Positions 4,481 to 23,013 of a DNA stretch of 32,000 nucleotides are shown here, in pieces. The translations under genes were made by a program, and so were the position numbers. The DNA comes from Candidatus Heimdallarchaeota archaeon (GTDB taxonomy: Archaea > Asgardarchaeota > Heimdallarchaeia > Heimdallarchaeales > Kariarchaeaceae): contig JASBSB010000008.1 of assembly GCA_030149205.1 (NCBI GenBank), forward strand, positions 30,001 to 62,000, in the 5' to 3' direction. Below the pieces are notes generated by a model. That model was given only the letters and a program-made list of their open reading frames with translations. It did not search any database and had not been told where the DNA came from. Within the stretch, counting starts at the first letter, position 1; each line of letters opens with the position of its first letter.

Positions 4481-4785
4481 ACATCATTTGTGATCTCCTC
4501 AGTCCGTAAGGTCACATAATGCTGATTAATATTAATCCTTATGATATATTATTAACAGCTTTTCTTAATTCACTAGATACCATTTATCCTCATATGACAA
4601 TGTTTTGTTAAAATCTCTGTTTAAAGTATGACTTTAGTCCTTTTTAATTTTCGTCGATGCATTCTAGGTTTACCCGAAGCAACTAAATTCGGAATTTTAT
4701 CTGTTTGAAGTTGTTTCTTAATAATCCGACAGGCAATCTAGGGAAATTATTTATCAAGACTTCAATTTTTGTTATGACAATAAGT

Positions 4786-5304
4786 TTATATTTCAGACAT
4801 CCAATTTTTAAGCTTTAGATCAACTGATTCCCCCTGTTGATCTAGAGAGACTAATTCCAGGTCACATTCTCGAAATTCAATAGATTTCGATTTTGAAGAT
4901 TTAAACCATAATTCTATGGCTTTTCTATCACTAGGTACCAATTTTTTTGGCAGATTTTCAAAGGTGAACCATCGTAGTTCACCTTCAGTCGATGATTCAA
5001 CCAGATTATTATCAACGGTAGATGAAAAAAAGTTTACTAAAAAATGATCGTGGCGAGTATTATTCAGGCTGACCACCTCATTTACAATTAAAAACAAATT
5101 TAAATTCTTTAACTCAAGAATCCCAGTCTCCTCTTTAGTTTCCCTTATTATTGCCTCTGATAAGCGCTCTCCAAATTCTACCTTACCCCCAGGGAGAGCC
5201 CATTGATTTTTGTATGGCCCGTTTGTTCTTTTCAAAAGTAAAACAAAGGTCTCATTCAATTGATGGTATTCAATTAAATTTACAACTATATTAACTATCT
5301 TCAT
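4786..5304 (-). CDS. Nudix hydrolase (MutT-like)
   Basis: Nudix box [26 protein letters not shown] at 5304 (MKIVNIVV) preferred; it overlaps the upstream ORF by 14 nt. Confidence 0.9.
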
Positions 5305-5689
5305 TATACCCAACAATCCACTTTTGGTAGAGTTCAAAGGGAATATCCTCTTTCAACAGAACCTCTAAGTCCTCTTTAAATATCTCTAAATTTTCCTCTA
5401 ACTCATCTAATGGTATCTGATCCTCTGGGATTTCCATTAATTTCATAATGTCATCTCCATCAATGTGAAAAATTGGATCAATTATTTTCGTTTTTTGTAG
5501 AATCCTGTCAATTAGATCTACAAAATATTGATCTTCTAATTTTACCCAAAAGCTGTCATCCTCACAATAGATGTTGTATACCTTGTTTTTGTTCTTTTTT
5601 CGTGTTTTGTAGATGTAATTCACGGTTTCTAAAATGAATCTGTTGTACTTTATTTCTAAATTATCCACAGTTAAAGTAGATTTTTTCAA
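5291..5689 (-). CDS. Hypothetical acidic soluble protein
   Basis: 132-aa ORF overlapping the Nudix start. No motif recognised. Confidence 0.6.
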
Positions 5690-5821
5690 ATTTATTATAT
5701 TTGTTTGATTCAGTAATGAATTGATTAATAATGGTTAATCAAATCCAAAACTTTGAATTAAAATAATTTTTATAAATAAATTCCATAGGGATTTAGCAAC
5801 AAGAAAGCTCCTAAACCGCTA

Positions 5822-7153: not shown

Positions 7154-7250
7154 CTATACTAAAGCTTAGTTATAAAATATAAATATTTCTAATTTACAAG
7201 TGTTACAAAAACAAAATATTAGCTACATTAGTCATGAAAAATATACTACA

Positions 7251-8417
7251 TTAAATTTTTGAATGTTTGTAACCACAAACTGAACAAGAAAATGAATTTA
7301 ATTTCATGCCACAATTTTCACAAAAATTACGGGTTTGAATTTGATTCGTTTTATCTTTGCCTATTTGTATCCCTGATTTAGTTAGATCTAATGGGTTTTG
7401 GGGGTGAGATAGTAAATTACTTGAACCTCTTGGTAATTCTTCTGGATATGTAACATTTGAATCGAGATAAGTATCAATTTCGAACTCTAGGATCACTGTA
7501 ATCTTCATGGCTATGTAAACAAAATAACTAATTCCTAAAATCAGAGGTAAAAAATATACCATTGTTAGAGGTCCTGGATTAAATTGTAGAACATCTATGA
7601 GGTATCCAAATATAAACAAAAGGAACAAAACATTCATTACTTTAAAGAACTGGATTGCAAAATGGACACGTTTCTTTATACCATATACTATCAACTCTAT
7701 AAACGGAACATACAACACAATGATAATTAAAAGTATCATTTCAAAAGAGATACTCTGTCCGGTTCCACCCAATGCTGCAGCGAATGCAAAGGCTAACGCC
7801 AAGAGAAGTAAAATAAAGGCTAAAATAAGGTAATAGCTGATTCGAAAAAATAAAATTGGATATCTTATTGTCCTTTCATAGACCCCGGGAAGAACTTGAA
7901 TTGTTCCACCCGTATTTCTAAACATGCCTAAAAATCTATACAAGGAATAGGAGTAGTTTGAAAGTGATGCTTCGGTTTTTGTCATATTTGATGAAGCAGG
8001 AATTTGGTTGGGTTTTACTAATATGAGTAGGATCGTAAAAATGAACATTGCACCTAAAATAAGTGGAAATACAAATCTGTTGTTTGAGATAACCTGAGAA
8101 TAGATAAGGATTTTGAAGATTGTATTGGGATTAATAAATGACCATAACCCTACCAAATCATAACACAAAAGCACTGTTATGATGACATTATACCAATTAA
8201 TTTTATTTGTCAAAATATTTCTCACTGAAATTTCAAGTAATATTGCTACCAATAATGAAATTAAAAGCGGTATAAAGGTTAACATAACATTTGTTGTACT
8301 TAAAAATCTTGAGGAGATGTCTCTTATAAGGCTATTAGTCCCAATTAAATTAAAAGCTATATTAATAATGTATAATACACGGATATAAGCCGCTATTTGC
8401 TGAGTTTTGGTAAACAT
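7251..8417 (-). CDS. Multi-pass membrane protein with C-terminal zinc ribbon (tandem paralog 2)
   Basis: YIRVLYIINI...PLLISLLVAILLEI module and terminal CENC-x8-CSVC. Confidence 0.75.
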   Translation of the reverse strand: MFTKTQQIAAYIRVLYIINIAFNLIGTNSLIRDISSRFLSTTNVMLTFIPLLISLLVAILLEISVRNILTNKINWYNVIITVLLCYDLVGLWSFINPNTIFKILIYSQVISNNRFVFPLILGAMFIFTILLILVKPNQIPASSNMTKTEASLSNYSYSLYRFLGMFRNTGGTIQVLPGVYERTIRYPILFFRISYYLILAFILLLLALAFAFAAALGGTGQSISFEMILLIIIVLYVPFIELIVYGIKKRVHFAIQFFKVMNVLFLLFIFGYLIDVLQFNPGPLTMVYFLPLILGISYFVYIAMKITVILEFEIDTYLDSNVTYPEELPRGSSNLLSHPQNPLDLTKSGIQIGKDKTNQIQTRNFCENCGMKLNSFSCSVCGYKHSKI

Positions 8418-8810
8418 CAGGCTGAAATTACTTACTATTTTATAAACTTAACCTAATTCAAATATTTAAAAATTATATTGAATTAGAAGTTTTTTACATA
8501 AACAATTTTATCAATATTCATTCTTCGAAACCTCTGGATGTGTGAAGATGATTGATTTGATTCAATATGAACTCTTTGGATGAATTTTATCTTTAAATAA
8601 AAAGGGGTAATTTATTCCTAAAAAGCTTGAAATGAAATTTATTTTTTGGAGAAGCAAATAAGAGAGATGATAGATTAAGCTGGGAAATTACACTCATAAT
8701 ATTACAATCAGAGGTTAAGGGTAATTCCTAATTTTATTCCAACGAATCCCTGCTCTGTTCTAAAGAACTTTATTTTACCTTTAAATGTATTCAAAAAATA
8801 AGTACAAAAT

Positions 8811-9917
8811 TTAATTGAAATTAGATTGATAGTATTCAGTTGTTGATCTAAGATTGTGTTGACCCGGTATTTCTTCTAATTTTAATATTTTAGTAAAGGT
8901 TATTGTCTTATAAAGCACAACTAAAGGGAGTATCGATGTTAGAACTAAATTAATAATTCCTGAAATCAACCCATTCTGATCATACTGGATGTACCACCAT
9001 CTTGTATTCGTTATAAATTGACTTAGAAGAAAGAGAAATATTGAGCCACTAAGCAATTTAAGAAATTGAATAGTCAAATGCTTTTTATGTTTAACTCCAA
9101 AAATCAAAATCTCAATTGTTGCTATTCCAAGTAAAACAAATGGAACCCAAGCCAAGGTCATAACGATTATTATTATTATCATCACATAAATTATAGGGTC
9201 AAAATTTGAATAGATATAATTGAAAATTACATTGCCTCTCCAGTCCATATGGCCAGCCAGAATTAGCAATGCTAAAAAGTAAGCTCCACTTAAAAAAACC
9301 AAGGCTATATACGCAAATAATCTAAAAAGCAATATAAAGTTGACAATAGAATCATTATAGCTAAGATTTGATGAAATTGAATTATTAGAGAGTGTTCTCG
9401 TAAGTCTTTTGGCTACGCTGACTAAATTAGTAAGCCTACCCTTCAAACGTGTAGTTGAAATCATTGAGAGCGATACACTATTGTTTATTAAAAAATAGAA
9501 ATATAGAACTCTAGCATTGAAAAGGAAGAAAAGAATTTGCAGAAAAATACAAAATTGCTTATTTATAAGAATTATATAGGGTATGGTTAGTGTAGCCAAA
9601 TAATTCAGCCAAATTGGATGGAAAGAAAAGAAATAGATCAAACCAATTATATTTATTGATATTAAGACAACTTCGATGAACAACATCAAAAAGGTGAATC
9701 CTCTAATAACCAATTGAATCATCAGTTCTAAGAACACAGCAAGAAATATTGAAAACAGAAATGGGTATAGAGCATTGTCCCAAGGAAAGGTCAATTTAAA
9801 ATTTGAGTGAAAAAACCAACTATAAATTGGAGTACTCATGTGAGCCAAGATGTTAAGAATATAAATTGCCCTCACGTAACCAATAATCTGTTCTAACTCT
9901 TGAAACATCTCATACAA
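8811..9917 (-). CDS. Multi-pass membrane protein (tandem paralog 3)
   Basis: YVRAIYILNI...PFLFSIFLAVFLEL and IEILIFGVKHKKHLTIQFLK align with paralog 2 (IELIVYGIKKRVHFAIQFFK). Confidence 0.75.
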   Translation of the reverse strand: MYEMFQELEQIIGYVRAIYILNILAHMSTPIYSWFFHSNFKLTFPWDNALYPFLFSIFLAVFLELMIQLVIRGFTFLMLFIEVVLISINIIGLIYFFSFHPIWLNYLATLTIPYIILINKQFCIFLQILFFLFNARVLYFYFLINNSVSLSMISTTRLKGRLTNLVSVAKRLTRTLSNNSISSNLSYNDSIVNFILLFRLFAYIALVFLSGAYFLALLILAGHMDWRGNVIFNYIYSNFDPIIYVMIIIIIVMTLAWVPFVLLGIATIEILIFGVKHKKHLTIQFLKLLSGSIFLFLLSQFITNTRWWYIQYDQNGLISGIINLVLTSILPLVVLYKTITFTKILKLEEIPGQHNLRSTTEYYQSNFN

Positions 9918-9991
9918 TTTATTTTCAGAAGTTAATAAATATTTCCAATTCCATTAAACATATCTCAGAAAACTGAGGTTAATGAAAGTTT

Positions 9992-10942
9992 CTAATATAG
10001 AGAGAACCTCAAATCCTGTCCCGTTAACTCTTCTATAACATGAATGAGGTAATAATAAGTTGAGGTAAGCAAAGAATTTTGCACACCTGATTTTAGCATA
10101 TTATTAATCCTGATTACTCTATGAAGCAATCCACAAACCATAAAAAAGTCTAAATTTTCAAATTCATAGGTGGTTTTAGCGTGCTCATTATACATCTTAA
10201 GATAATTTGATATTATATGGATTGGTTGATCAACACTGATAGAAGTTAGAGCAAAACTTAGGTCATAACGAATATCCCCGATCTCTGCACCCTCATAGTC
10301 AATAGGAACCTGGGATTCTTCCCTCACTAAAATGTTAAGGGGGTGATAATCTCCGTGAAGAAAATGTAAAGAACCAGTAATCTGCAGATTATAATTTGAA
10401 TTTAACCAGCTCATCACATCAGAGGTCTGTTTTTTTGAGCGGGATTGCTTAATTTCCTTTGACAGTCTTTTTATGAGTGTTTTTGCAAAGTTAGATGGAT
10501 GTTTTTGAATATAATTGATATTTGTTCGTGGGAATAATTCCTTCCAATCTAATCCATGAAGAATTGTTAAATTTTTTAAATACTGGTGTAAATCGTGCTC
10601 TGTGAACTTCCCGCTCCTAAAATATCTCTCACCCAAAGTTCCTTCTGGAAAATACTCCAATAATAGAAACTGCGGTTTTTTCGGTTCAAAATAGTAAACT
10701 TTGGGGACTGGATATCCAACCTGATTTAATTTTGAATAGATCAAGTTTTCGTAATTTGGGTCATGATACTTATTTCCATAAAATCTAAGTACAATGGGAT
10801 GTTTCGTTGTCTGAACCAAATAGGTAGGAACTGATATTCCCCCCTCAAGTTGTTTGAAACTCATAAAATCCCCTAATTCGTTCTGCCGTAATGCATTTTT
10901 TATTTTTTCATCAATTACAAACAATAAATCATTAGTAAACAT
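9992..10942 (-). CDS. Aminoglycoside phosphotransferase/choline kinase-like (APH family) protein
   Basis: GG-x-S P-loop, VLRFY, PVPKVY, Brenner motif HGDYHPLNIL and IDYE. Confidence 0.85.
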   Translation of the reverse strand: MFTNDLLFVIDEKIKNALRQNELGDFMSFKQLEGGISVPTYLVQTTKHPIVLRFYGNKYHDPNYENLIYSKLNQVGYPVPKVYYFEPKKPQFLLLEYFPEGTLGERYFRSGKFTEHDLHQYLKNLTILHGLDWKELFPRTNINYIQKHPSNFAKTLIKRLSKEIKQSRSKKQTSDVMSWLNSNYNLQITGSLHFLHGDYHPLNILVREESQVPIDYEGAEIGDIRYDLSFALTSISVDQPIHIISNYLKMYNEHAKTTYEFENLDFFMVCGLLHRVIRINNMLKSGVQNSLLTSTYYYLIHVIEELTGQDLRFSLY

Positions 10943-11176
10943 ACAGAATAAAAGTTAACTTCCATGAGAATAGAAACACGTGACAGTGTTTGGATATCGT
11001 GTACCAATTAAACGATATTTTTTATAAAACATCTCCTTATCACACTATCTTAATGTATTTCAAAAAACGCCAGAAGATTCAGTTTACATTTAAATTTACT
11101 ATTCAAGTATTGAAACGATTTGTTTTCTCTAAGATGATTGCAATCTACTACTTCATCCAGTCTAAAATAATAAGGT

Positions 11177-11683
11177 TCAAGATTCGCTTTTATCTTCTTT
11201 GGCTTTGCTTGATTTTCTCGAAGATTTTGAGACTGATTTGATCCCCATCGCATCATAATCAGGGAAAAATAAGACAAGGAGGAGAAGGCCTGCCAATAAA
11301 AATTCTGAGAAAAAAATCAATAACAACCATAATTGATTAAAGAACTGATTAAAGTTTGCGAAAAAATTTCTTGAGCTGTTAAATAAGGATGGATTTATGT
11401 TTATTATAAATGTCATTAACATTAAAATTAGGGAAGAGTTTCTAAACACCTCAATAATTGGTTGCTTTATGTCTAATTTTTGTGAAAAAATTAAACCAAA
11501 AACATACAAGAAAGAAACACCTATCAATGAGCCTAGGATAAATAGTGATATCCGAGCATAAAAGACAGAATTATTATTGAAACTCATGCCAAAGGCAACA
11601 AGAAATGATAACCCAATCCAAAAATAGGTTAGATTGTTCATTAATTCAAAAAATTTATCTAGAGTTGTTCTAAACATTGACAT
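11177..11683 (-). CDS. Hypothetical membrane protein (about 4 TM)
   Basis: 168-aa hydrophobic ORF with charged tail and a TTTATA box about 25-30 nt upstream. Confidence 0.65.
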   Translation of the reverse strand: MSMFRTTLDKFFELMNNLTYFWIGLSFLVAFGMSFNNNSVFYARISLFILGSLIGVSFLYVFGLIFSQKLDIKQPIIEVFRNSSLILMLMTFIININPSLFNSSRNFFANFNQFFNQLWLLLIFFSEFLLAGLLLLVLFFPDYDAMGIKSVSKSSRKSSKAKEDKSES

Positions 11684-11917
11684 ATTAACTTGACATACCC
11701 AGACAGAATATAAATATTTCGAGAAAAAATATAGTTTTTTATTTTAAAATCAACTTAATGTGATTAAATCTAAATAGAGGAGCTTTGATGGTAAAGAGCA
11801 AGATGAAATCAAAAAAATAAGAATTTCAATTTTATATGGTAATGCAGTTAGAAACCATTGGAAGCTAAGAAACATTTGAAAGAAATTCTAATGATATAGA
11901 TCACATAATCTTTTTGA

Positions 11918-12403
11918 TTAAGTCACTCGCTGAGATGTTAGGTTAGCATTCTCTCTTTGGAATAAGAAAAGGATGAATTCAGACCAATAATACATCAGAA
12001 TCCCAAACAAGAATAATCCTATAGTCGTAAGAGACATAAACACCAAATATGAAAATAATAGCTGAATAAATTCTAAACCTACTTGAAATAATATAGAAGA
12101 GCCAATATCAATGATAGATAGACCCAAGTATAGTATAATAGCATTTAATAATATTATTTCAAAAGAAATTCTTAATATATTTATTAGTTTCTCAGATTCA
12201 CTAATCACCTTAAACAACACAAATAAGAATACAAAGAGCAATCCAACCCAAAAAGAGAATATTGAGACTTGAGAAATACCGTATTCCAATTGATAGATCC
12301 TAAAGAAATATCCTAGAGAGAGGGAGAATATAATTGAAGTTGTTAACAAAACAAATACAAAGAGGTTCGAGAGCTTTCTATTGAATATTTTTTCGAATTT
12401 CAT
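11918..12403 (-). CDS. Hypothetical membrane protein (about 4 TM)
   Basis: 161-aa hydrophobic ORF with ATG start. Confidence 0.6.
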   Translation of the reverse strand: MKFEKIFNRKLSNLFVFVLLTTSIIFSLSLGYFFRIYQLEYGISQVSIFSFWVGLLFVFLFVLFKVISESEKLINILRISFEIILLNAIILYLGLSIIDIGSSILFQVGLEFIQLLFSYLVFMSLTTIGLFLFGILMYYWSEFILFLFQRENANLTSQRVT

Positions 12404-12706
12404 TTAATCACACTTATTAATTAGAAACCTAGTTTAAAAACAGAATCACTCAAAGGGCAAAATCTGTTTAAAATTAAATGAAGCAGAAAATTTACTTTGA
12501 AAGAAGATAGTAACTGTGAATCAATTAGTCAGAATAAAGAAAAAGAAATTGGGATTTGCAACTAAATTACAATTCCAATCTATCTATTAACTAAGGCTTC
12601 CCTGTGAATTCTCCCTCTGAGAGGAATATTAATTAGTCAAAATATGATGATAAATATAATGACAGCAATATAGAAATTTTTTAAAGATTAATTTCCAATC
12701 GAGGTT

Positions 12707-13935: not shown

Positions 13936-16698
13936 TTATGGTGTCGAGGGTTTATTTATTCTTCGGATCGCAAAAACAGTCAGTGCAATTAAACCAATTG
14001 AAATGAAGATCGATCCTGAGGCAAGGACCTGCCTGTTATCAAAGAATGCTTTACTGATCTGAGACGCCACCACATTGACCTTTAAGGTAGCAATATGAAC
14101 ATCAACTGAATTAGATAGTGGGCTTGCTCCTTCAGAATTGAATGCTTGAACCCAGTATGTGTAATTTTGCCCCCTCGTAAGATTTACATCTCGATACTGA
14201 AGTGAAGTTACATTACCAACGATATTCAAAGATTGATTAACAACTACGTACTGATATACGAGATAATACAGAACAGGTCTACCACCATCGTATGTGGGAG
14301 CACTCCAACTCAAGAGCACCTGTGTCCCATTTACTTTAGCTGTTAATGGTAAAGGTGGACTGGGTGCTGTGGTGGTTATGACAGATTTGAGCTCTGAAGT
14401 GCTGCTCTGACCCAGTATAGTAACAGCTGTCACGAAATAGGTGTAATTTACACCTTTTGCGATTGAATAATCTCTATAATTTGTTCCAGAGTTATTAAAT
14501 CCAATAAGATGTGCATTACCTGAGAGTCCTCTATAAATATTATATTTGAGTATAGGATAGCCTCCAGTATCATTAGGACTATTCCATTTTATGAGTACAT
14601 GGTTTGAAAATAACTCTAGAGTAACATTGGTTGGCGTGGATGAGGCCCTACCAGGTTTTAGGTTGATAGAAGATGAATTCATCCCATAACCTTTTGAATT
14701 ATAAGCAGAGACCTTGTATTGATAGGTAATCCCGTTCACCAGGTTTGTATCTTTATAGGAAATTCCAGTTATATTTGAAATTCTGTAAAAATTAACTGAG
14801 TTGTTACTTCGGAATATTGTGTAACCTTGAATTACAAAACCTCCGTCATCAAAAGGAGTCAACCAACTGACTACATTTGCTTTATCACTTACTACACCAG
14901 ATATACTTCTTGGGGCACTGGGAACTCCTCCAACCACTAATGAACTAATTTTTGAAGCCAAACCTTCACCTTGATTATTGGTTGCACTTACCTTATAGTA
15001 GGCGTGATCCTTGTTTGTTACACCGTTATCAGTGTAATTTAGTAAACTGGTATTTCCTATCCACACAAATGAGTTAGGATCGGAGATTGAGCGATAGACT
15101 GAGTAGTGTAATATGGGATAACTGTTATCAAATGGTTTAGACCATGATAGGTACACTAAATTATTCGCTGATTGAATATCAATTATTTGGGGAGCATAAG
15201 GTGTGTTTGCTACCTTGAGTTTTATTTCATTAGAATACCCACTTTCATATTTCTGATTCAGAGAGGTAACTACATAGAAATAGGTCTTCAAATTAACAAC
15301 AGATGAGTCTACAAATGATAATGATGAAATATTTGTTGCAATTTTTGTGTAGGAACTTCCAGAAGTTATAGATCTATAAACATTGTACCCAACAAATGTA
15401 AATCCCCCATCTGTTGCGGGTGAAGTCCAGTTCAATATTACAGTGTTATTAGATGCAAATCCAATCAATGAGGAAATCGTGGGTGGGGCACCTGTTGAAA
15501 AAGTGGACACCATGGTAGAAAAAGTTGACTCTTGGAATGAGTTGTATGCCGTAATTTTATAATAATAGGTTTTACCATTAATTACATCGAGGTCAATATA
15601 CCCTGTTTTTGTCGTGTTCTCACCTATCTTAACAAATGTCCCACTTGCGCTGTCAGACCTATAAACACCATACTTTGTGAGAGGTTTTCCACCAGTTAAT
15701 GATGGGGGGTCCCAAGAAAGTGTGATCTTATTTAACCCCCCAACCGCAGACGGGTTTAATGGCTCAGTAATCGTCCCAGATGGAACAGCTGAGAATTCTT
15801 TAGAATAAATTGATTCTCCAAGGCTATTGATTGCAGTGACAACAAAATAGTATGTTTGACCGTTGGTTAATCCAGAAATAATTGCACTGGCTGAAGTAAC
15901 AGTTGAACTTAAGGTATATCCTAAACCAGAGGTAGATGAGGAATAAACCTTATATTGAGTAATCGGAGAACCTCCATCCCTTGGGGGTTTCCATGATATT
16001 CCGATGGTAGAATCTGAAGAATTTGTGGTAAATACGGATGGGGGTTGGGGCTTTACTGTAGAGAAAGTCAAACTAGAATAACCTCTTGAGGTATGATATG
16101 AGGTGAAATCATCTGCTGTTGTAGAAACTGCCCACATAATATCAATTTTGACATTAGGAGTAATTTTGTAATCCTGAGAATCGCCAGTATCTAATAATCT
16201 GCTAAACTCAAGAAGAGTTGTAGAAGAGTTTGCCGAGCCTCCATAAGATAGGATGTTCTCCACACTGTCCTTTGCATGAGATACAGCTCCTGTCCCGATG
16301 TTATCTTGAATGTAAGCCCCTGTGGCATCTACATAGCCAATATAGATGTCAGCTCCTGCCATTTTCGTTGAAGGATTTGCATTTAGCCCTATTGATACAT
16401 AACCTGCAACCTTTGCAGCCATTGCAAGATATATAACTGACTGATTTAAAGCATAATAGACATAAAATGAAGAGGCGGAGTCTATTAAAGCAAATCCATC
16501 ATATTCCCCTGGAGAAATAATTCCGTCATGAATTACCTCAGATGAACTAACAGCAGAGGGTACATAAACTGTTTCAGTTGGATTTATATTAGCTAAGCCA
16601 GTCTGATCTATATAGATCCCAGATTGAACTACCAATAAAAATATTAGAATAAAAATCAAGTGAAATTTTTTTGACATATTACCAAAAATTCGGGTCAT
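13936..16698 (-). CDS. Surface protein: signal peptide + DOMON domain + 7 fibronectin type III repeats + C-terminal TM anchor
   Basis: KMAGADIYIGY (Met codon 16360-16362), EFSRLLDTGD, SYHTSRG (His codon 16093-16095), then seven W..P..DGG...Y...Y.Y.V.A.N repeats. Confidence 0.9.
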   Translation of the reverse strand: MTRIFGNMSKKFHLIFILIFLLVVQSGIYIDQTGLANINPTETVYVPSAVSSSEVIHDGIISPGEYDGFALIDSASSFYVYYALNQSVIYLAMAAKVAGYVSIGLNANPSTKMAGADIYIGYVDATGAYIQDNIGTGAVSHAKDSVENILSYGGSANSSTTLLEFSRLLDTGDSQDYKITPNVKIDIMWAVSTTADDFTSYHTSRGYSSLTFSTVKPQPPSVFTTNSSDSTIGISWKPPRDGGSPITQYKVYSSSTSGLGYTLSSTVTSASAIISGLTNGQTYYFVVTAINSLGESIYSKEFSAVPSGTITEPLNPSAVGGLNKITLSWDPPSLTGGKPLTKYGVYRSDSASGTFVKIGENTTKTGYIDLDVINGKTYYYKITAYNSFQESTFSTMVSTFSTGAPPTISSLIGFASNNTVILNWTSPATDGGFTFVGYNVYRSITSGSSYTKIATNISSLSFVDSSVVNLKTYFYVVTSLNQKYESGYSNEIKLKVANTPYAPQIIDIQSANNLVYLSWSKPFDNSYPILHYSVYRSISDPNSFVWIGNTSLLNYTDNGVTNKDHAYYKVSATNNQGEGLASKISSLVVGGVPSAPRSISGVVSDKANVVSWLTPFDDGGFVIQGYTIFRSNNSVNFYRISNITGISYKDTNLVNGITYQYKVSAYNSKGYGMNSSSINLKPGRASSTPTNVTLELFSNHVLIKWNSPNDTGGYPILKYNIYRGLSGNAHLIGFNNSGTNYRDYSIAKGVNYTYFVTAVTILGQSSTSELKSVITTTAPSPPLPLTAKVNGTQVLLSWSAPTYDGGRPVLYYLVYQYVVVNQSLNIVGNVTSLQYRDVNLTRGQNYTYWVQAFNSEGASPLSNSVDVHIATLKVNVVASQISKAFFDNRQVLASGSIFISIGLIALTVFAIRRINKPSTP

Positions 16699-16811
16699 TT
16701 AGTAAATTATTGTTTTCTAAATTTAAATGATTGAGATTGTGCAATTTTTTTATATAAAAAGTATAGTTAATTTTAAGCATTAGTCCATTTCAATATGTAT
16801 AAATAAATTTT

Positions 16812-18362
16812 TTATCTGTTATTTTTCAATTTATATCTTTTTTTTGCTATTAAATGGATTATAAATATCGGGATGAGAAAGTTGATAAGATCTATCTCAG
16901 CTGGTGAAGCGGTTGATCCTGATTTAGAGGGTAGACTTTTAAAAGGCGAAGTTTGAAGAAATGAGGTAAATCTAATCTGTCTTTTCCAGAGGTTTTCTGA
17001 TCTAAGATTAATTAGTGTTTCAATAATTTGTTGAATTAGATTATTAAATTTTGTGTTGTTCAGATCTAAGTTTGTTTTAACATTGAACAGCAGCTTTAAT
17101 ACACCAGATAGCCCTTCTCCCAATGAGAGATCAAAAACGTTTTGAGGTAAAATGCTGTTTTTTAATAAAATTAGTTCCTTTGAGTTATACCTACCTTGAA
17201 TTAATTCATTCAGTACAAACCAGCTAATGATATCTTTAGTCTTAGTTTTTTGCGCCTCCTGCAACATCTGCCAAAGATTAAGAAGAACCCATAAGACACC
17301 TATGGTTCCCTTATTAAAGCTATCATGCTGAACATATTCCACATTTCTATCCAAGAATCCCATAAAAGTCGAATTCTCCTTCAACGAACTGAAGAGATAA
17401 TTTACGCCCTTAATTATAGAATTATCAAATTCAGAGCTATTTAAGATTAATTTAGACTCATATAGCCCATAAAGTATTCCAGCAACCCCTTCATCGTAAC
17501 CAATTTTGGTGACGGAACCATTTATCTCTGTTTTCCAACTTCCATCCGCTTCCTGGGTTTGAACGAGGAATGTTAACATTTTTTTACTGAAATTAAGGAT
17601 AGTTGAATTATTTAGGAGTTTTGCTACCTTTATAAACAGAGGAATCATTCCAGAAATCCCCCACTCATATGAGGTCTTAATCGGCATTGTCGTGTCTTCA
17701 ATGTAATACCATGGAATAATATTAAATGATTGGCCTGATAATTCAATTGAAATTGCAACAGAGAGTAACCAGTTCATGATTGAATTCATTTGAGAGAGAG
17801 AGTCTGGGTTTGGATTTTTCAAATAACGTTGATATATCAAGTCAAGTATTCCAGCACTCCCGTATTTTAGATCAGTAATAGGAATACCATAAGGATCATT
17901 AGGAAGGAAATAAGCATATCCCCAATGTGGTATTGTACTTGAATTCAAAGCTTCATTAAAAAGCTCGTTAATACCTTTATCAACGTACTCTAACCATATA
18001 TCAGCTCCATTGGACCAACTTAAAATAGTTTTTAATATTCCTGCAGCCCCATATTTTTTCCCAGGGTATACGGTGTTTTCTCCAGAATACTTACCCCATG
18101 CAGGAACTTTTACTCCCTGAAATTCTATCTGAGAACTCCAAATCTTTTCCAAGGTTGAGTTTATAACGTCACGTAGAACAGAAGAATTCAGACCATGATG
18201 ATAAAATTGAATTAATGTATCAGTGATTCCAGCCGCTCCAAGTTCATATCCATAGTAAGTTTCTGTATCATAATCTGGAAGTGATGGAAGTTGGGCATAT
18301 GTTGAGTGATTTATGAGACTCAACAATAACAATAATATCAAGCTCTGTGAAGGGATTTTCAT
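16812..18362 (-). CDS. Exported, membrane-anchored LanC-like alpha/alpha toroid lacking zinc ligands
   Basis: Seven GxxG helix-cap repeats (GAAG, GAAG, GSAG, GISG, GVAG, GTIG, GLSG), signal peptide, C-terminal TM + KKRYK, no Cys in the protein. Confidence 0.75.
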   Translation of the reverse strand: MKIPSQSLILLLLLSLINHSTYAQLPSLPDYDTETYYGYELGAAGITDTLIQFYHHGLNSSVLRDVINSTLEKIWSSQIEFQGVKVPAWGKYSGENTVYPGKKYGAAGILKTILSWSNGADIWLEYVDKGINELFNEALNSSTIPHWGYAYFLPNDPYGIPITDLKYGSAGILDLIYQRYLKNPNPDSLSQMNSIMNWLLSVAISIELSGQSFNIIPWYYIEDTTMPIKTSYEWGISGMIPLFIKVAKLLNNSTILNFSKKMLTFLVQTQEADGSWKTEINGSVTKIGYDEGVAGILYGLYESKLILNSSEFDNSIIKGVNYLFSSLKENSTFMGFLDRNVEYVQHDSFNKGTIGVLWVLLNLWQMLQEAQKTKTKDIISWFVLNELIQGRYNSKELILLKNSILPQNVFDLSLGEGLSGVLKLLFNVKTNLDLNNTKFNNLIQQIIETLINLRSENLWKRQIRFTSFLQTSPFKSLPSKSGSTASPAEIDLINFLIPIFIIHLIAKKRYKLKNNR

Positions 18363-18380
18363 AATTACTTTCTCACTAAC

Positions 18381-18962
18381 CTAACCTTGTGGGATCAAAA
18401 ATCCAAGACCAAAGGTCTCAAGTATTGAGTGACCATACACATATTTTCCACCTGTGCCTGCAATAATTGCAGTTAGTGCAGCGCCAATTATTATTGGAAT
18501 AAGGTATAGAATGGGTAATATGATATGTTTTCTGTCAAAAATATGAGCGTGATACCTCCATCCAACATATGTCTTCAATATTAGAGGGGTTAATAATACA
18601 AATAAAGTGTAGATTGATAATCTAACTTTGTATTCTAGCAAGGTGTTTTCGATAGCGGGTGATACTCCACCTGCAGATTGAAAACCTGTATAACCAGCAA
18701 TCCCATATCCTAATATTCCCAAGATTAAAAGTATGTAACTTGAAAATTCAAATCTCCTTACATATCTTAAAGATAAATCCCATGTATCTTGAGAGATCAT
18801 TTCCCTCTTCAATAGAATATCTACTAATACTTTTATTCCGAATGCTGTAGCACCAGCTGCGAAGCTCATTAATATCCCTACTATTGGGAAATGAATCACT
18901 GCTGCATGACTTGATGCAAAGAACTCAGTCATCATATTTACAAAATCATCAATTATAGTCAT
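18381..18962 (-). CDS. DUF2231-like 4-TM membrane protein
   Basis: HAAVIHFPI N-terminal motif and GGKYVYG C-terminal motif as recalled for DUF2231. Confidence 0.7.
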   Translation of the reverse strand: MTIIDDFVNMMTEFFASSHAAVIHFPIVGILMSFAAGATAFGIKVLVDILLKREMISQDTWDLSLRYVRRFEFSSYILLILGILGYGIAGYTGFQSAGGVSPAIENTLLEYKVRLSIYTLFVLLTPLILKTYVGWRYHAHIFDRKHIILPILYLIPIIIGAALTAIIAGTGGKYVYGHSILETFGLGFLIPQG

Positions 18963-18963
18963 A

Positions 18964-19896
18964 TTAGAGTTCCTCCTTTTTGATCAGATAAACTGAAATG
19001 GTAATAACAGTGAAAAACAAAATTGAGCCTATCATCAATCCCACAGATACATTATAGAACAAGTAAATATCAACATTATATTTTAAAGGCTCTGAAGCTA
19101 TTGAGGTGATAGATGTATTAATTGCTCCACCATATTTCAACGAAGATAACGCAAATTTTGCATATGACAATGAACTATCTGGTCGATGATGAACTTGACT
19201 AGCAAAGTACATACTAACATTGTAATTTGGTGAAAATTTAACATCTGAACCCTCTTTATCATTTGTGACTAAAGCACGTTTGGCTTCTATTACATATCCA
19301 AGAACTTTTCCTGAGGTATCGTTTAATAAGACCTCCTCCCAATATAGATCCTGTATTTTGTCTTGAACAATAAATGGGGGTTCAGTTCCAATTGGTGTTG
19401 TATCACCTAATACCTTAGTTTTATCTGCAGATCCAAAAACCCACATGTCATCGCCGATAGACATTGGCTTCATATCTGAAGATTTAAAGTTCTCAGGATC
19501 TGTACTGTTGTCTGCATCCCATTGTATTGCAATCCAAGGTATGTTTTCATCGAATGCAATCCTAAAATAAACAAAGTTTTGATCAAATACAGAGGAAATT
19601 GAGCCTGAAACACCAAAAGCTTCTATGTTAATTTTTGGCACTTTCTCCCAAGCAGCTGAAATTTGATTATCCCCCACAACAATGAGAGGTAGATTTTTCT
19701 GTGATGAAGAAGAATCAAATTGTGATGTCATATTATACGATAACAATTCTCCTGATACCTGGGGTGCATTAAGGTAAATAGATTTTTGAGGTGCGTTCGC
19801 TCCTTCAGCTACTTGCGGTACACCTAATATCAGAAGAAAGATAAAGCTAGTTGTTAATAATTTAAATCTTAAGTCTTTCATAAAAGTTCCTCTCAT
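18964..19896 (-). CDS. Exported DOMON-like protein with C-terminal TM anchor
   Basis: Signal peptide, YFRIAF..WIAIQW, PMSIGDDMWVFG, IEAKRALVTND and ASQVHH. Start is 19896 or 19881. Confidence 0.65.
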   Translation of the reverse strand: MRGTFMKDLRFKLLTTSFIFLLILGVPQVAEGANAPQKSIYLNAPQVSGELLSYNMTSQFDSSSSQKNLPLIVVGDNQISAAWEKVPKINIEAFGVSGSISSVFDQNFVYFRIAFDENIPWIAIQWDADNSTDPENFKSSDMKPMSIGDDMWVFGSADKTKVLGDTTPIGTEPPFIVQDKIQDLYWEEVLLNDTSGKVLGYVIEAKRALVTNDKEGSDVKFSPNYNVSMYFASQVHHRPDSSLSYAKFALSSLKYGGAINTSITSIASEPLKYNVDIYLFYNVSVGLMIGSILFFTVITISVYLIKKEEL

Positions 19897-22616
19897 TTCA
19901 GTTTGGTTATTACGTATATTCCTGCTCCAAAGACTCCAATAATTATGAAGATATTTGAGGTTGTCATAATTGCAGAGATGTCAAAATTGTCATAGTATAT
20001 CGTCTTATAGTTTGACACTGTGGTCACTTGGATAGTTTCGACATTGACTTTCTGTGGAGTTCCTGTAACAATATCTGACCTTTGACTGAGTCCTATTTGA
20101 TTCTTTGCAATGATGTGATAAGAATAAGAAACATTATTTTTAACATTATAGTCAATAAAATAAAATTCAGTAGTATTAGCATAATTTGTAAATGAGCCAT
20201 TTCCCTCTGCTCGATACACCAGATATAACTGAGCAACAGATTTGTTTGACTGAGGTGGTAACCAACTGAGAACTATAATTTTGTCTCCAGCTAAAATACT
20301 TAATGATTCTGGCTTATCTGGTATTGAAGATGTTAGAACACCTACGTAGGCAGATCGATCCCCTTTCCCAGCTTCATTTACAACCATTATAGAGTAGTAA
20401 TAAGTTTCATCAAAAATTATATCTGAGTCCGTATAGTTTAATTGACTTGTCTTTCCAATTAATATTGGGGGAGAATCTTTTACAAAGGTTCTATAGATTT
20501 CATATGATAAGTTAGAAGACCCTCCAGTATCAACCGAAGATTCCCATTTAATAACGTTCGAAACTCCAGTAAAAACACCTGTTAAGTTAGTAACATTTGA
20601 GGGCAAGCCAATCAACTTGATGTAGGTTACAGGACTAGTTGTTCCGTATCCATTTTTGTTAACAGATATAACATAATAGTAGTAATTTGTTCCTGGTGTC
20701 ACATTTTTATCTAGAAAATAACGAAGTTGGGTAGTTTTTGTCTTTGAGAATGAGGAATTATCAGTAGATCGATAAATATTGTAATGGGTAATTGCCGCTC
20801 CACCATCATCCTTAGGAGCTTTCCAAGTGAGACCAATACTCGAAATATATGATTTTACAGTTAAATTTTGAACTTGCCCAGGGGTCGTTGAAGGAGATCC
20901 GGTAATTTGGAAGGAGTATCCACTCTCTCCAACGCTATTATTTGCAGTTATTTGATAAACATATGTCTGTCCATTCTTTAATCCAGTGTCATTGTACGAA
21001 TTAGTACTTGTAATCTTTACTAAAGAAAATGTGCCACTTTGGGCGTCCATTTTATAAACGGTGTAATTTAGTACTGTATATCCTCTACCATCTGCTGGAT
21101 TCCAAGATATGTAAACAAATGAATCACCCTCTGTTTTTGTCAAGTTTGTGGGTGGAAGAGGAGTATTAGCGATTGTGACCCTTTGCACAGCTGATTTCTT
21201 GCTTTCACCCGCTTGATTTATCGAAGTTATATAATAATAGTAAGTGAATGAATTTAAGACTCCATTATCCAGAAAGCCAGTTTGTGAAGAATTTGTCCCT
21301 ATATTGACGAAATTAACATTATCTGAACTTCTATATATCTTGTACTGTGTAATTGGATACCCTCCATCAGTGACCGGTTTTGTCCATGAAAGATTTGCAG
21401 AATTATCACCATTTATAATTGAAAGAAACCTTGGTTCTGAAGAAACACCAATGGGAGTGACTGAAACAGTCGTTGATTTGAGACTCTCATTATATATGTT
21501 TTCTGATGTTATATAATAATAATAAGTAAACCCATTTAGAACAGGAGTATCTGTGAATGAAGTGGATTGAGTTGTTCCAATCTTAAGAAAAGGTCCACTT
21601 AGATTCATGGATTTATACACATTGTAATGTATAGGAATACCTCCTGTACTCGTTGGTGTTAACCAGTTTATAGTAACCTGTTCAGAGGTGTAGGAGGCAG
21701 ATACACTTCTCGGTTCAGTAATCAAACCCAGAGGTAATGCCACAATAACATTTGAATCTCCACTCTCACCATTGTTATTCACCGCAGTTACCTTGTAGTA
21801 GTAAATTACCCCGGTTGTAACTGTGGTGTCAACATATGAAGTCGAAGTAGAGGTGCCTACCTGAACATAGGAGGAACCATTGTTATCTGATCTATAAATT
21901 TTGTAGTTAATTAGAGGAGAACCTCCATCTCCTGCTGGCGGTGTCCAAGAGAGTGATACACTAGTCTCTGTGACTGATTTAGTTAATGTCGAAGGCGCTG
22001 CAGGTGGTCCTATAAAGACATATCCCCCACTTACCTTGCCAGCTATGGTATGTTCTATGCTGATATCGTCACTACTTGCATGTAATGCCCAAACCATTGT
22101 AACTAGTTTACCAGGAATGAGTACTTTGTCTGCTACAGAATCACCTGTATTTAGATTCCTTGAAAATTCTAGAATTGTTCGGGTACTAGATTCACTAGCT
22201 GCAAAAAGGTTTATGTTTTGAATACCGTCTGGTGGAGGGACTACTTTACCTATTCCAAATGCATCAAAAATGTAGGCTTGATTTAATGTGGCATCAAACC
22301 CTCCAGTAATCATATCATATCCTGACATTGCACCAGTACCCTCATATCCAACAGATATCCATCCTTTTGCGTCCATTTCCAGAGCCATAAAAATTTCTCC
22401 CCTTATGATATTATAGTACATTTTTACGTAGGGAGAAGTTTTCATGACAAGTGAGTGAGTATATTCATTTGTTCCAATAACACCATCAATAGAAATAGCA
22501 TCGGTTGAAATTTCTGTGGTCGGTTTGAATTCAACCCCAGTTAGCTGTATATTATTCATACCTAGTAGAAGAATGAAAATTATGCCAAAACTTACGAAGA
22601 TAGATTTCTTCATCAT
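19893..22616 (-). CDS. Surface protein: signal peptide + DOMON domain + 7 fibronectin type III repeats + C-terminal TM anchor (paralog of 13936-16698)
   Basis: GAMSGYDMITG (Met codon 22326-22328), EFSRNLNTGD, IEHTIAG (His codon 22050-22052), seven FN3 repeats. Start moved to MMKKS at 22616, just downstream of a TATA box. Confidence 0.9.
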   Translation of the reverse strand: MMKKSIFVSFGIIFILLLGMNNIQLTGVEFKPTTEISTDAISIDGVIGTNEYTHSLVMKTSPYVKMYYNIIRGEIFMALEMDAKGWISVGYEGTGAMSGYDMITGGFDATLNQAYIFDAFGIGKVVPPPDGIQNINLFAASESSTRTILEFSRNLNTGDSVADKVLIPGKLVTMVWALHASSDDISIEHTIAGKVSGGYVFIGPPAAPSTLTKSVTETSVSLSWTPPAGDGGSPLINYKIYRSDNNGSSYVQVGTSTSTSYVDTTVTTGVIYYYKVTAVNNNGESGDSNVIVALPLGLITEPRSVSASYTSEQVTINWLTPTSTGGIPIHYNVYKSMNLSGPFLKIGTTQSTSFTDTPVLNGFTYYYYITSENIYNESLKSTTVSVTPIGVSSEPRFLSIINGDNSANLSWTKPVTDGGYPITQYKIYRSSDNVNFVNIGTNSSQTGFLDNGVLNSFTYYYYITSINQAGESKKSAVQRVTIANTPLPPTNLTKTEGDSFVYISWNPADGRGYTVLNYTVYKMDAQSGTFSLVKITSTNSYNDTGLKNGQTYVYQITANNSVGESGYSFQITGSPSTTPGQVQNLTVKSYISSIGLTWKAPKDDGGAAITHYNIYRSTDNSSFSKTKTTQLRYFLDKNVTPGTNYYYYVISVNKNGYGTTSPVTYIKLIGLPSNVTNLTGVFTGVSNVIKWESSVDTGGSSNLSYEIYRTFVKDSPPILIGKTSQLNYTDSDIIFDETYYYSIMVVNEAGKGDRSAYVGVLTSSIPDKPESLSILAGDKIIVLSWLPPQSNKSVAQLYLVYRAEGNGSFTNYANTTEFYFIDYNVKNNVSYSYHIIAKNQIGLSQRSDIVTGTPQKVNVETIQVTTVSNYKTIYYDNFDISAIMTTSNIFIIIGVFGAGIYVITKLK

Positions 22617-22634
22617 TAGTGAAATTTGATATAG

Positions 22635-22646
22635 TAAGTATATTAA
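22635..22646 (-). promoter_or_regulatory. Putative TATA-containing promoter core (TTAATATACTTA) of the DOMON/FN3 operon
   Basis: Lies 19-30 nt upstream of the start at 22616. An identical 12-mer is at 3032-3043 upstream of the gene starting at 3014. Confidence 0.55.
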
Positions 22647-23013
22647 TATATGCAATAAAACAAGAACTACCCTCATATTGTGCAATAATTTTCTCAACAT
22701 AATACTATGACAAACTTGTGTGCTATTTTTCTGGTTAAAATGGGGATTTTTCCGAAATCAATATAATATGCGTTTTAATAAAACACATAATTAATAAAAA
22801 TTTTCCATTATTAAAACATCAAATTGTCTATTTAAGTGAAGTTTGAAAACTTTGATAGTGTACAACCAGGTAATAAGAAAAAAAATATCCTCTTAATTAG
22901 ACATGAGTAACTTTAAAATATTGAATTCAAATCTATAAATTGAAAATTTATTGATTCTGAATCTTCGATAAGTAGTTATTCAACTAGGAGTAAAGAAAGA
23001 TGAGGTTGAAAAA

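What the first reader, a model, noticed from the sequence alone, without database searches (positions are those of the whole stretch)
13936..22616. Five-gene cell-surface cluster resembling an extracellular heme-b redox relay (DOMON/FN3 x2, DOMON, DUF2231, LanC-like)
Seen: five co-directional genes, the first four tightly coupled (4-nt overlap at 19893-19896, 1-nt gap, 18-nt gap, then 113 nt). Four have a signal peptide plus C-terminal TM anchor, and three have DOMON-like domains with Met and His at the expected positions. Established: heme-binding DOMON domains, such as the cellobiose dehydrogenase cytochrome domain, bind b-type heme through Met/His, and eukaryotic DOMON domains are often fused to cytochrome b561. 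Inference: distal DOMON heads on FN3 stalks, a membrane-proximal DOMON and a 4-TM protein could form a b-type, non-CxxCH electron or heme path across the envelope. I know of no description of this gene set in archaea.
Basis: partly seen in the sequence, partly recalled or inferred. Interest (0 to 1): 0.85.

Follow-up and report, generated by a model that had tools for sequence, protein, structure and literature searches.

The report
Asgard surface haem-type DOMON redox cluster
An uncultured Asgard archaeon (Heimdallarchaeia) encodes a five-gene cell-surface cluster whose three DOMON domains keep the Met/His pair that holds haem b in known relatives. Its core gene pair is a variant of modules that in sister lineages contain a true cytochrome b or are fused to the respiratory oxidase, so it is most likely an undescribed electron-transfer device on the outside of the cell.

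Summary
Five co-directional minus-strand genes have exactly the stated junctions: two ~900-aa DOMON + 7xFN3 + C-terminal-anchor proteins (g1, g5), a 310-aa anchored protein (g2), a 193-aa 4-TM protein (g3) and an exported LanC-like toroid (g4).

- **g2:** it is a divergent DOMON. Met145 and His237 are two of only five invariant residues in 62 diverse relatives. They align with the invariant Met/His of the g1/g5 DOMONs.
- **g3:** it falls below the Pfam DUF2231 threshold but is DUF2231-like by fold. Its invariant HxxxxH motif lies on the predicted outer face.
- **Comparative result:** a g2-family gene is directly followed by a 4-TM partner in 22 of 23 informative loci. The partner is g3-like in 12 and a PF01292 'prokaryotic cytochrome b561' in 10. 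In a sister family a g3-like domain is fused to oxidase subunit III, behind a DOMON gene.
- **Host:** it makes haem precursors and has three haem-copper oxidases, but no CcmB was found.
- **g4:** it lacks every zinc ligand and is not a lanthionine cyclase.

The electron-relay reading is therefore partly supported. The cofactor of g3, the role of g4 and transfer along the stalks remain unshown. The scan had noted related modules on other DNA (e1-5444813, e1-5416141), which I re-derived independently. The family appears confined to Heimdallarchaeia.

The parts
19893..22616 (-). g1: signal peptide, DOMON head (putative haem-b ligands M125/H217 in the 935-aa ORF numbering), seven FN3 repeats, C-terminal TM anchor. 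The longest ORF extends to 22700, but 22616 is the likely start.
   Evidence: Pfam DOMON 64.4 bits and fn3 142.6 bits. FN3 periodicity and TM segments. Met/His invariant in orthologues. TATA-like box upstream of 22616.
18964..19896 (-). g2: signal peptide, divergent DOMON-superfamily domain (about residues 70-255) with invariant M145 and H237, C-terminal TM anchor. This is the membrane-proximal DOMON.
18381..18962 (-). g3: 193-aa four-TM protein, DUF2231-like, with an invariant H19-x4-H24 motif at the outer end of TM1, K112, and H178 in close orthologues. It is the membrane partner of g2.
   Evidence: AF2 pLDDT 89.9 with four long helices. Its nearest AFDB clusters are DUF2231 proteins, including fusions with cytochrome c and YHS domains. 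Pfam DUF2231 gives 12.8 bits here and 21.6-24 bits in relatives. Conservation. Complex prediction with g2: score 0.56 against best control 0.00, rated weak support.
16812..18362 (-). g4: exported, C-terminally anchored LanC-like (alpha/alpha) toroid that has no Cys and lacks the zinc ligands.
   Evidence: Pfam LANC_like 54.6 bits. The profile aligns to LANCL2 with the CHG zinc motifs replaced by KYG. No invariant Cys or His exists; the invariant residues are aromatic and acidic. The gene is adjacent to g2-g3 in L027, L028 and L029 and lies nearby in L044.
13936..16698 (-). g5: paralogue of g1 with signal peptide, DOMON head (M113/H202), seven FN3 repeats and a C-terminal TM anchor. It probably has its own promoter.
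   Evidence: Pfam DOMON 63.6 bits and fn3 149.4 bits. Repeats and TM. g1-like and g5-like orthologue groups are both kept in another family (L027). A TTTATATA box lies in the 113-nt spacer.

Best explanation
The cluster encodes an extracytoplasmic electron-transfer system based on haem-b DOMON domains, in an Asgard archaeon of the Heimdallarchaeia (Kariarchaeaceae-like). No CcmB was found in this genome, so it may lack c-type cytochromes. The core is a two-gene membrane module. g2 is a DOMON held at the membrane by a C-terminal helix, with its haem iron held by Met145 and His237. g3 is a DUF2231-like four-helix membrane protein whose conserved HxxxxH motif faces outward, where it can dock g2 and perhaps hold a metal or haem. 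This module is interchangeable with a DOMON plus multi-His cytochrome b module, and it is related to a DOMON plus g3-like::CoxC module built into terminal-oxidase operons of sister lineages. It therefore most likely links the membrane respiratory chain (quinol or oxidase side) with redox partners outside the membrane. The two paralogous stalk proteins (g1, g5) place further Met/His DOMON heads on seven FN3 repeats. They probably act as mobile outer carriers that exchange electrons between the membrane-proximal DOMON and extracellular donors or acceptors. The LanC-like toroid is a conserved accessory and is not a lanthionine cyclase. Shown: the domain architecture, Met/His invariance, the gene linkage and partner swapping, and the host's capacity for haem precursors and oxidases. 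Inferred: haem binding, g2-g3 complex formation, the direction of electron flow, the role of the stalks and the role of g4.
For: 1. Haem-type DOMON signature.
- Met and His are invariant in 12 DOMONs of four architectures and in 62 diverse g2 relatives, where only five residues are invariant.
- They align between g2 and g1/g5.
- Their spacing of 89-92 residues compares with 93 in CG8399 (PMC10691727) and 98 in CDH (the latter from memory).
- PMC10691727 states that this pair is kept in haem-binding DOMONs and absent from sugar-binding DOMONs and DBH.

2. Partner logic.
- A g2-family gene is directly followed by a 4-TM gene in 22 of 23 informative loci: g3-like in 12 and PF01292 cytochrome b in 10. 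The PF01292 partners score 38-55 bits against a cut-off of 30.1 and have five invariant His.
- The two partner types are not homologous (hhalign 0.6%), so this is non-orthologous displacement within one functional slot.

3. Fusion evidence.
- In the sister family the gene order is cydAB-DOMON-(g3-like::COX3)-COX2-COX1.
- In another family a classical DOMON is followed by a g3 orthologue (L064, L065).

4. Wider redox context.
- AFDB DUF2231 relatives are fused to cytochrome c and YHS domains.
- The same genome has a DOMON followed by a 4Fe-4S protein and an NrfD-like protein.

5. Host capacity.
- Three COX1 genes and ALAD are present. No CcmB was found.

6. Stalk proteins and clade.
- Stalked DOMON proteins flank the pair in the window, L027, L028 (fragment), L029, L037 and L057.
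- Independent literature proposes electron-transferring DOMON proteins next to cox genes in this clade.
Against: - No haem binding has been measured, and the residue-level equivalence to the CDH ligands rests on profile alignment and spacing, not on a superposition.
- g3 has no His on the predicted inner face. Its third His (H178) is replaced by Glu or Gly in wider relatives, so it may be only a docking subunit.
- A single haem on a long FN3 stalk cannot conduct along the stalk. It needs a swinging-arm mechanism for which there is no evidence.
- No haem exporter is recognisable in this genome.
- g2 and g3 were not found in the three same-genus genomes, which are 82-89% complete, so the system is dispensable.
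- The LanC-like gene also exists as solo paralogues and has no place in the mechanism.
- The g2 model has only moderate confidence (pLDDT 61).
Confidence: 0.5

Rival explanations
1. Glycan-binding surface and adhesion cluster. The DOMON/CBM9-like heads bind carbohydrates on prey, partners or the cell's own glycocalyx. The FN3 stalks are spacers. The LanC-like toroid is a six-hairpin glycosidase or lyase-like enzyme acting on the bound glycan. g3 is an unrelated small membrane protein.
For: Foldseek ranks CBM9 first for the g2 model (E 2.6e-5). The LanC-like profile also touches GH88, GH76 mannanases and pectate lyase. Precomputed Pfam hits of its homologues include PF07470 and PF03663. The invariant residues of g4 are mostly Trp, Tyr and Asp. 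The stalk proteins carry 20-22 N-glycosylation sequons.
Confidence: 0.15
2. Haem or iron acquisition relay, analogous to the NEAT/Isd system. The distal DOMON heads capture haem, pass it to the membrane-proximal DOMON g2, and g3 takes it into or across the membrane.
For: The layout resembles Isd in having distal and proximal haem-binding domains plus a small membrane protein. The Met/His sites argue for haem binding. One relative's locus carries CcmA/CcmB-type haem-handling ABC genes.
Against: The host has a haem-precursor pathway gene (ALAD). The g3 slot is filled elsewhere by a redox cytochrome b and by a CoxC fusion, neither of which is a transporter. No ABC importer lies in the window. Six-coordinate Met/His haem is typical of electron carriers rather than of transfer proteins (general knowledge).
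Confidence: 0.1
3. The five genes are not one functional unit. Only g2-g3 form a module. g1 and g5 are general envelope or adhesion proteins, and g4 is an unrelated surface protein that lies nearby because exported-protein genes cluster.
For: g5 probably has its own promoter in the 113-nt spacer. The LanC-like gene has solo paralogues in the same and in related genomes. The sister-family g2-cytochrome b loci lack both stalk proteins and a LanC-like gene within about 10 kb. The gene order differs between genomes.
Against: Stalked DOMON proteins accompany the pair in six loci from five genomes of two families, in different orders and orientations. That argues for selection on proximity. The g2-g3-g4 order is kept in four loci, and g4 is also near g2-g3 in the distant L044. 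The stalk heads share the same Met/His signature.
Confidence: 0.2

Closest known systems
Eukaryotic CYBDOM proteins (DOMON fused to cytochrome b561: Arabidopsis HYP1/CRR, animal SDR2/FRRS1, insect CG8399)
   Same: An extracytoplasmic DOMON with conserved Met/His (putative haem b) is coupled to a helical membrane redox partner. AFDB neighbours of the g2 model include ferric-chelate reductase and cytochrome b561-DOMON proteins.
   Different: Here the DOMON and the membrane protein are separate, translationally coupled genes. The membrane partner is DUF2231-like (four TM helices, His only on the outer face) or, in relatives, the prokaryotic PF01292 cytochrome b. Neither is homologous to eukaryotic cytochrome b561. 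Stalked extra DOMONs and a LanC-like protein are added.
DOMON proteins beside coxABC in Hodarchaeales and Kariarchaeaceae (Appler et al. 2024, bioRxiv 10.1101/2024.07.04.601786)
   Same: Same clade, the same DOMON type (invariant Met/His) and a g3-like membrane domain. I re-found this operon as L061-L063, with the g3-like domain fused to COX3.
   Different: The window's cluster is not next to any oxidase; the genome's own cox operons lack both a DOMON and a g3-like domain. It uses a divergent DOMON subfamily (g2) and adds two 7xFN3 stalk proteins and a LanC-like protein.
Cytochrome domain of fungal cellobiose dehydrogenase (haem b, Met/His)
   Different: There is no flavin dehydrogenase domain and no LPMO in the cluster. 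The carrier is anchored to the membrane or mounted on FN3 stalks rather than joined by a short linker. No sequence-level match was found.
Haem-b gamma subunits of ethylbenzene dehydrogenase and nitrite oxidoreductase (EB_dh family, NxrC)
   Different: No molybdoenzyme alpha/beta subunits are nearby. From memory, EBDH uses Met/Lys ligation, whereas g2 keeps Met/His.
LanC / LANCL lanthionine cyclases and glutathione transferases
   Same: Seven-repeat GxxG (alpha/alpha) toroid. Pfam LANC_like 54.6 bits. The profile hits LANCL2, LANCL1 and NisC.
   Different: g4 is exported and membrane-anchored. It has no Cys at all, and the two CHG zinc motifs read KYG. It therefore cannot use the zinc-thiolate chemistry that defines the family.

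Membership tests
DOMON (Pfam PF03351), g1 and g5 | Match to the family HMM above the curated cut-off | tested here: met
   64.4 and 63.6 bits against a cut-off of 32.7, covering profile positions 5-123 of 124.
Haem-b-binding DOMON subgroup (CDH cytochrome, AIR12, CYBDOM) | Conserved Met and His axial ligands about 90-100 residues apart | tested here: met
   Met and His are invariant in 12 DOMONs and in 62 g2 relatives. They align between g2 and g1/g5. Spacing is 89-92 residues. The criterion comes from PMC10691727. Equivalence to the CDH ligands was not checked by superposition.
Haem-b-binding DOMON subgroup | Bound b-type haem | not testable with these tools
   This needs spectroscopy of expressed domains.
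DOMON superfamily, g2 | HMM match or DOMON beta-sandwich fold | tested here: met
DUF2231 (Pfam PF09990), g3 | Match to the family HMM above the curated cut-off | tested here: not met
   12.8 bits against a cut-off of 26.4. Relatives reach 21.6 and 24.0 bits over the full model. The nearest AFDB fold clusters are DUF2231 proteins (probability 1.0, TM 0.5-0.7). I therefore call it DUF2231-like rather than a member.
Prokaryotic cytochrome b561 (PF01292), g3 | Homology and four haem-ligating His on both membrane faces | tested here: not met
   hhalign of the g3 profile against the PF01292 partners of g2 relatives gives probability 0.6%. g3's invariant His all lie on one predicted face.
LanC-like lanthionine cyclase (PF05147), g4 | Match to the family HMM above the cut-off | tested here: met
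   54.6 bits against a cut-off of 23.2.
LanC-like lanthionine cyclase, g4 | Cys-Cys-His zinc site (CHG motifs) | tested here: not met
   g4 has zero Cys. In the alignment to LANCL2 both CHG motifs are KYG. No Cys or His is invariant in 10 homologues.
Eukaryotic CYBDOM | DOMON fused to a eukaryote-type cytochrome b561 core (PF03188) | tested here: not met
   No PF03188 hit appeared in any of the five proteins. DOMON and the membrane protein are separate genes. The resemblance is functional, not membership.
Multihaem cytochrome c conduits (Mtr/Omc type) | CxxCH haem-c motifs | tested here: not met
   None of the five proteins has a CxxCH motif or any Cys. No CcmB was found in the genome.

The most novel reading that the evidence does not exclude
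Heimdallarchaeia, the archaeal lineage closest to eukaryotes, may have replaced cytochrome c with membrane-anchored and stalk-mounted haem-b DOMON carriers. On this reading the cluster is an outward-reaching electron conduit: a DUF2231-like membrane dock, a proximal DOMON and two DOMONs on stalks tens of nanometres long. It would let the cell exchange electrons with minerals, oxygen-derived species or partner cells. The prokaryotic DOMON plus membrane-partner module would then be the functional forerunner or analogue of eukaryotic CYBDOM ferric reductases.
Probability: 0.22. Interest if true: 0.85.

Novelty: new variant of a known kind. Interest (0 to 1): 0.62.

Why it matters
If the DOMON domains carry haem b, this is a cytochrome-c-free way of wiring the outside of an archaeal cell. 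It occurs in the Asgard lineages now argued to respire oxygen and to be closest to eukaryotes. It would also give the large DUF2231 family its first functional context, as a membrane partner of extracytoplasmic redox domains that can be exchanged with cytochrome b and fused to oxidase subunit III. It would define a new DOMON subfamily, seen so far only in Heimdallarchaeia, with only 81 cluster representatives among 1.84 billion. It points to an exported, zinc-free branch of the LanC fold. Finally, it offers a prokaryotic counterpart to eukaryotic DOMON-cytochrome b561 reductases that can be tested with simple haem spectroscopy.

Tried and rejected
- **PDB sequence searches.** Searches with the g1 DOMON, the g2 profile and a 12-DOMON profile gave nothing significant. 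I therefore could not read off the CDH ligand positions residue by residue.
- **Complex prediction, g2 (66-310) + g3 with one haem riding along.** Score 0.56 (runs 0.56, 0.56, 0.63) against a best control of 0.00. Runs agree in at least 64% of contacts and partner pLDDT is at least 83. The tool rates this as weak support: the mark was reached by 58 of 80 solved complexes and 2 of 110 mismatched pairs, but a score of 0.60 or under was seen in only 7 of those 80 and in both mismatches that passed. My own alignments and the small molecule make these counts rough. I do not count it as evidence.
- **Protein Atlas search with g4.** No usable hit.
- **Expression.** No RNA holder is listed for the stretch. 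Only DNA runs from sediment and hydrothermal-vent metagenomes hold it, so co-transcription could not be examined.
- **RNA genes.** Rfam and tRNA scans of the window were empty.
- **CcmAB link.** CcmAB-type genes and a redoxin sit beside g2-g3 in one relative (L044), but no CcmB was found in this genome, which is 93.5% complete. I do not treat that link as general.
- **g3 as a diverged PF01292 cytochrome b.** Rejected by hhalign (probability 0.6%).
- **g4 as a lanthipeptide or glutathione enzyme.** Rejected because the zinc ligands are missing and the protein is exported.
Full report
**What is in the sequence**

One search lists five consecutive ORFs on the minus strand:
- g1: 19893-22700
- g2: 18964-19896
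- g3: 18381-18962
- g4: 16812-18362
- g5: 13936-16698

g1 and g2 share an ATGA stop/start overlap. One nucleotide separates g2 from g3, 18 nt separate g3 from g4, and 113 nt separate g4 from g5.

The 113-nt spacer is AT-rich and has a TTTATATA box about 45 nt before the g5 start. g5 may therefore have its own promoter.

It yields a normal signal peptide, matches where orthologues begin, and has a TATA-like box 25-35 nt upstream.

**Pfam results**

| Gene | Family | Score (bits) | Cut-off (bits) |
|---|---|---|---|
| g1 | DOMON + fn3 | 64.4 (DOMON) | 32.7 |
| g5 | DOMON + fn3 | 63.6 (DOMON) | 32.7 |
| g4 | LANC_like | 54.6 | 23.2 |
| g3 | DUF2231 | 12.8 | 26.4 |
| g2 | none | - | - |

Other features:
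- Each stalk protein has seven FN3 repeats at about 93-residue spacing.
- g1, g2, g4 and g5 each have an N-terminal signal-like segment and one C-terminal TM helix.
- g3 has four TM helices.
- None of the five proteins contains a cysteine. That is 0 in 2,846 residues, against 0.49% in the other ORFs of the window (P about 7e-7). No CxxCH motif is present.

**Host**

Sources name homologues of g3, g4 and g2 as Candidatus Kariarchaeaceae or Candidatus Hodarchaeales archaeon. The genome is therefore an Asgard archaeon of the Heimdallarchaeia. It has 3.3 Mb in 12 contigs and is 93.5% complete.

It carries three COX1 genes and ALAD. No CcmB was found. DNA runs from sediment and hydrothermal-vent metagenomes hold the stretch.

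**The three DOMON-type domains**

*g1/g5 heads.* They are bona fide DOMONs by HMM. In an alignment of six or seven orthologous heads, and in a wider set of 12 DOMONs, a Met and a His are invariant. The wider set includes oxidase-operon DOMONs from sister lineages.

*g2 is a divergent DOMON.* The evidence is:
- Profile-profile alignment to the g1/g5 heads gives 91% probability and places g2 M145 and H237 on the heads' Met and His.
- 18 of 62 relatives hit PF03351 on their own.
- In those 62 relatives, with mean column identity of 16%, only W83, W121, M145, R207 and H237 are invariant.

*Ligand spacing.* The Met-His spacing is 89-92 residues. It is 93 in insect CG8399, and 98 in CDH by my memory of M65/H163.

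*Literature criterion.* PMC10691727 states that this Met/His pair ligates haem b in CDH. It is universally kept in CYBDOM DOMONs and is not conserved in sugar-binding DOMONs or in DBH. On this criterion all three domains are of the haem type. Haem binding itself is untested.

**The membrane protein g3**

Thirteen close homologues share invariant H19 and H24 (GHPAVIHFPI, at the start of TM1) and H178 (YGHSIL, after TM4).

The AF2 model is confident (pLDDT 89.9) and shows four long helices. By the positive-inside rule the N-terminus, the TM2-TM3 loop and the C-terminus face outward. This places all three His on the outer face; this topology is an inference.

The nearest AFDB fold clusters are DUF2231 proteins. 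Some of these are fused to cytochrome c or YHS domains. Relatives of g3 reach 21.6-24 bits on the DUF2231 HMM over its full length. g3 therefore lies just outside that family.

Across a wider set that includes oxidase fusions, only H19, H24, F25, G82, G93, K112 and G171 are invariant. H178 becomes Glu or Gly.

There is thus no sign of the two-faced, four-His arrangement of a transmembrane cytochrome b. The cofactor of g3, if any, is open.

**Comparative genomics: the decisive part**

*Rarity and distribution.* The g2 family has only 81 representatives at E<=1e-3 among 1.84 billion cluster representatives. Among 400 sampled Asgard genomes it occurs in 23. These lie in three families: the window's own (5 of 11), a second family of the same order (2 of 3), and a sister family of the same class (15 of 22). 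It was found in none of the other families.

*Gene neighbours of g2.* Wherever enough flank exists, a g2-family gene is directly followed by a four-TM gene. This holds in 22 of 23 informative loci.

| Partner | Loci | Where |
|---|---|---|
| g3-like | 12 | window, L027, L028, L029, L035, L036, L037, L044, L055, L056, L074, G005:C131 |
| PF01292 'prokaryotic cytochrome b561' (38-55 bits, cut-off 30.1; five invariant His) | 10 | L048-L054, L057, second module of L035, the P0040 locus |
| none (a tandem DOMON-g2 protein) | 1 | L075 |

g3 and these cytochromes b are not homologous (hhalign probability 0.6%). One functional slot is therefore filled by two unrelated membrane proteins, one of which is an established haem-b electron carrier.

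*Fusion and further pairings.*
- In the sister family the gene order is cydA-cydB-DOMON-(g3-like::COX3 fusion)-COX2-COX1 (L061-L063).
- In another family a classical DOMON is followed by a g3 orthologue (L064, L065).
- Appler et al. [quoted passage not shown]
- Two unchecked notes of this scan on other genomes (e1-5444813, e1-5416141) describe the oxidase-fusion and the stalk-DOMON/anchored-DOMON/cytochrome-b layouts. I reproduced both on my own loci.

*More redox context.*
- The window's genome holds a further DOMON gene followed by a 4Fe-4S protein and an NrfD-type membrane protein.
- A DUF2231 relative in another Asgard family sits beside an HdrD-like protein.
- One g2-g3 pair is followed by a UbiE-type methyltransferase.

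**The outer genes**

Stalked DOMON-FN3 proteins accompany the pair in six loci from five genomes of two families, in varying order and orientation. The loci are the window, L027 (both g1-like and g5-like), L028 (fragment), L029, L037 and L057 (a 1,935-aa protein). The g1-type and g5-type paralogues are both retained across families, so they are not redundant copies.

The LanC-like gene keeps the g2-g3-g4 order in four loci and lies near g2-g3 in the distant L044. It also has solo paralogues.

Its profile aligns to LANCL2, LANCL1 and NisC with the two CHG zinc motifs replaced by KYG. No Cys or His is invariant. The conserved set is aromatic and acidic. Weak similarity extends to GH88, GH76 and pectate lyase toroids.

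It is an exported six-hairpin toroid of unknown activity and certainly not a zinc-dependent cyclase.

**Interpretation**

The best-supported reading is an extracytoplasmic haem-b DOMON electron-transfer system.

- *Core:* g2 plus g3 form the membrane module. Gene coupling across 12 loci supports a physical complex. The complex prediction gave only weak support (see Tried and rejected).
- *Function by analogy:* the cytochrome-b and oxidase-fusion variants suggest the module connects the respiratory chain with redox partners outside the membrane.
- *Stalks:* g1 and g5 would extend the reach. Because a single haem per stalk cannot conduct along FN3 repeats, any relay would need stalk flexibility, as with the mobile cytochrome domain of cellobiose dehydrogenase. 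This step is inference.
- *Unknowns:* the direction of flow, the external partner, the cofactor of g3, haem export and the function of g4.

I put about 0.7 on haem-b DOMONs and 0.5 on the overall redox-module reading. A true outward conduit to extracellular partners gets 0.2-0.3.

Three rivals are scored lower:
- A glycan-binding or adhesion cluster with a glycosidase-like toroid.
- A haem-uptake relay.
- Only g2-g3 form a unit.

None of them explains both the Met/His invariance and the cytochrome-b/oxidase partner pattern.

**Novelty**

DOMON-based electron transfer is known from CDH and CYBDOM, and it has been proposed next to cox genes in these archaea. I found none of the following described in the searchable literature:
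- the g2 subfamily;
- its obligatory pairing with a DUF2231-like protein, interchangeable with cytochrome b;
- the stalk-mounted DOMON paralogues;
- the exported zinc-free LanC-like partner.

I class it as a new variant of a known kind.

Noticed in passing
L061 (G071:C1:42000-56000), also L062 and L063: In a sister Heimdallarchaeia family the oxidase operon reads cydA-cydB-DOMON (263 aa, PF03351 94.5 bits)-[g3-like four-TM domain fused to COX3, 477 aa]-COX2-COX1. This gives a fusion link between the g3 family and the terminal oxidase.
   Followed up: partly
G000:C8:267000-279000 (L073: 5084-8795): The window's own genome has a weak-DOMON protein (416 aa) directly followed by a 4Fe-4S dicluster protein and an NrfD-type membrane protein. 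It looks like an ACIII/Psr-like quinol module with a DOMON as its outward carrier.
   Followed up: partly
L044 (ENA ERZ23486248 scaffold_34): 5001-12261: A distant g2-g3 pair is flanked by a redoxin/SCO1-like gene, CcmB plus an ABC ATPase (haem-export type), an S26-like peptidase and a LanC-like gene. The window's genome has no CcmB hit, so the link is not general.
   Followed up: partly
window 13936-22616: All five cluster proteins together contain no cysteine (0 in 2,846 aa), while the other window ORFs have 0.49%. They carry many N-glycosylation sequons (20, 6, 0, 11 and 22).
   Followed up: yes
L035 (G004:C50:8000-19891): One genome carries both module types back to back. A weak g2 paralogue followed by a PF01292 cytochrome b lies on the minus strand, and g2 followed by g3 and a 320-aa Ig-like protein lies on the plus strand.
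   Followed up: partly
L068 (G327:C95): 3621-5318: In another Asgard family a DUF2231 protein (24.0 bits, just under the cut-off) sits next to an HdrD-like CCG + 4Fe-4S protein. It could be standing in for the HdrE cytochrome b anchor.
   Followed up: no
L074 (JGI 3300037483 contig): 10001-12697: A g2-g3 pair is followed directly by a UbiE/MenG-type quinone methyltransferase gene.
   Followed up: no
L027 (G014:C129): 8375-11140: The g1-like stalk gene is split into 572-aa and 328-aa ORFs. This may be a frameshift, an assembly error or a decaying copy.
   Followed up: no
G001-G003 (same genus as the window's genome): g2 and g3 were not found in the three same-genus genomes (82-89% complete), although they occur in other genera and families. 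The distribution is patchy.
   Followed up: partly
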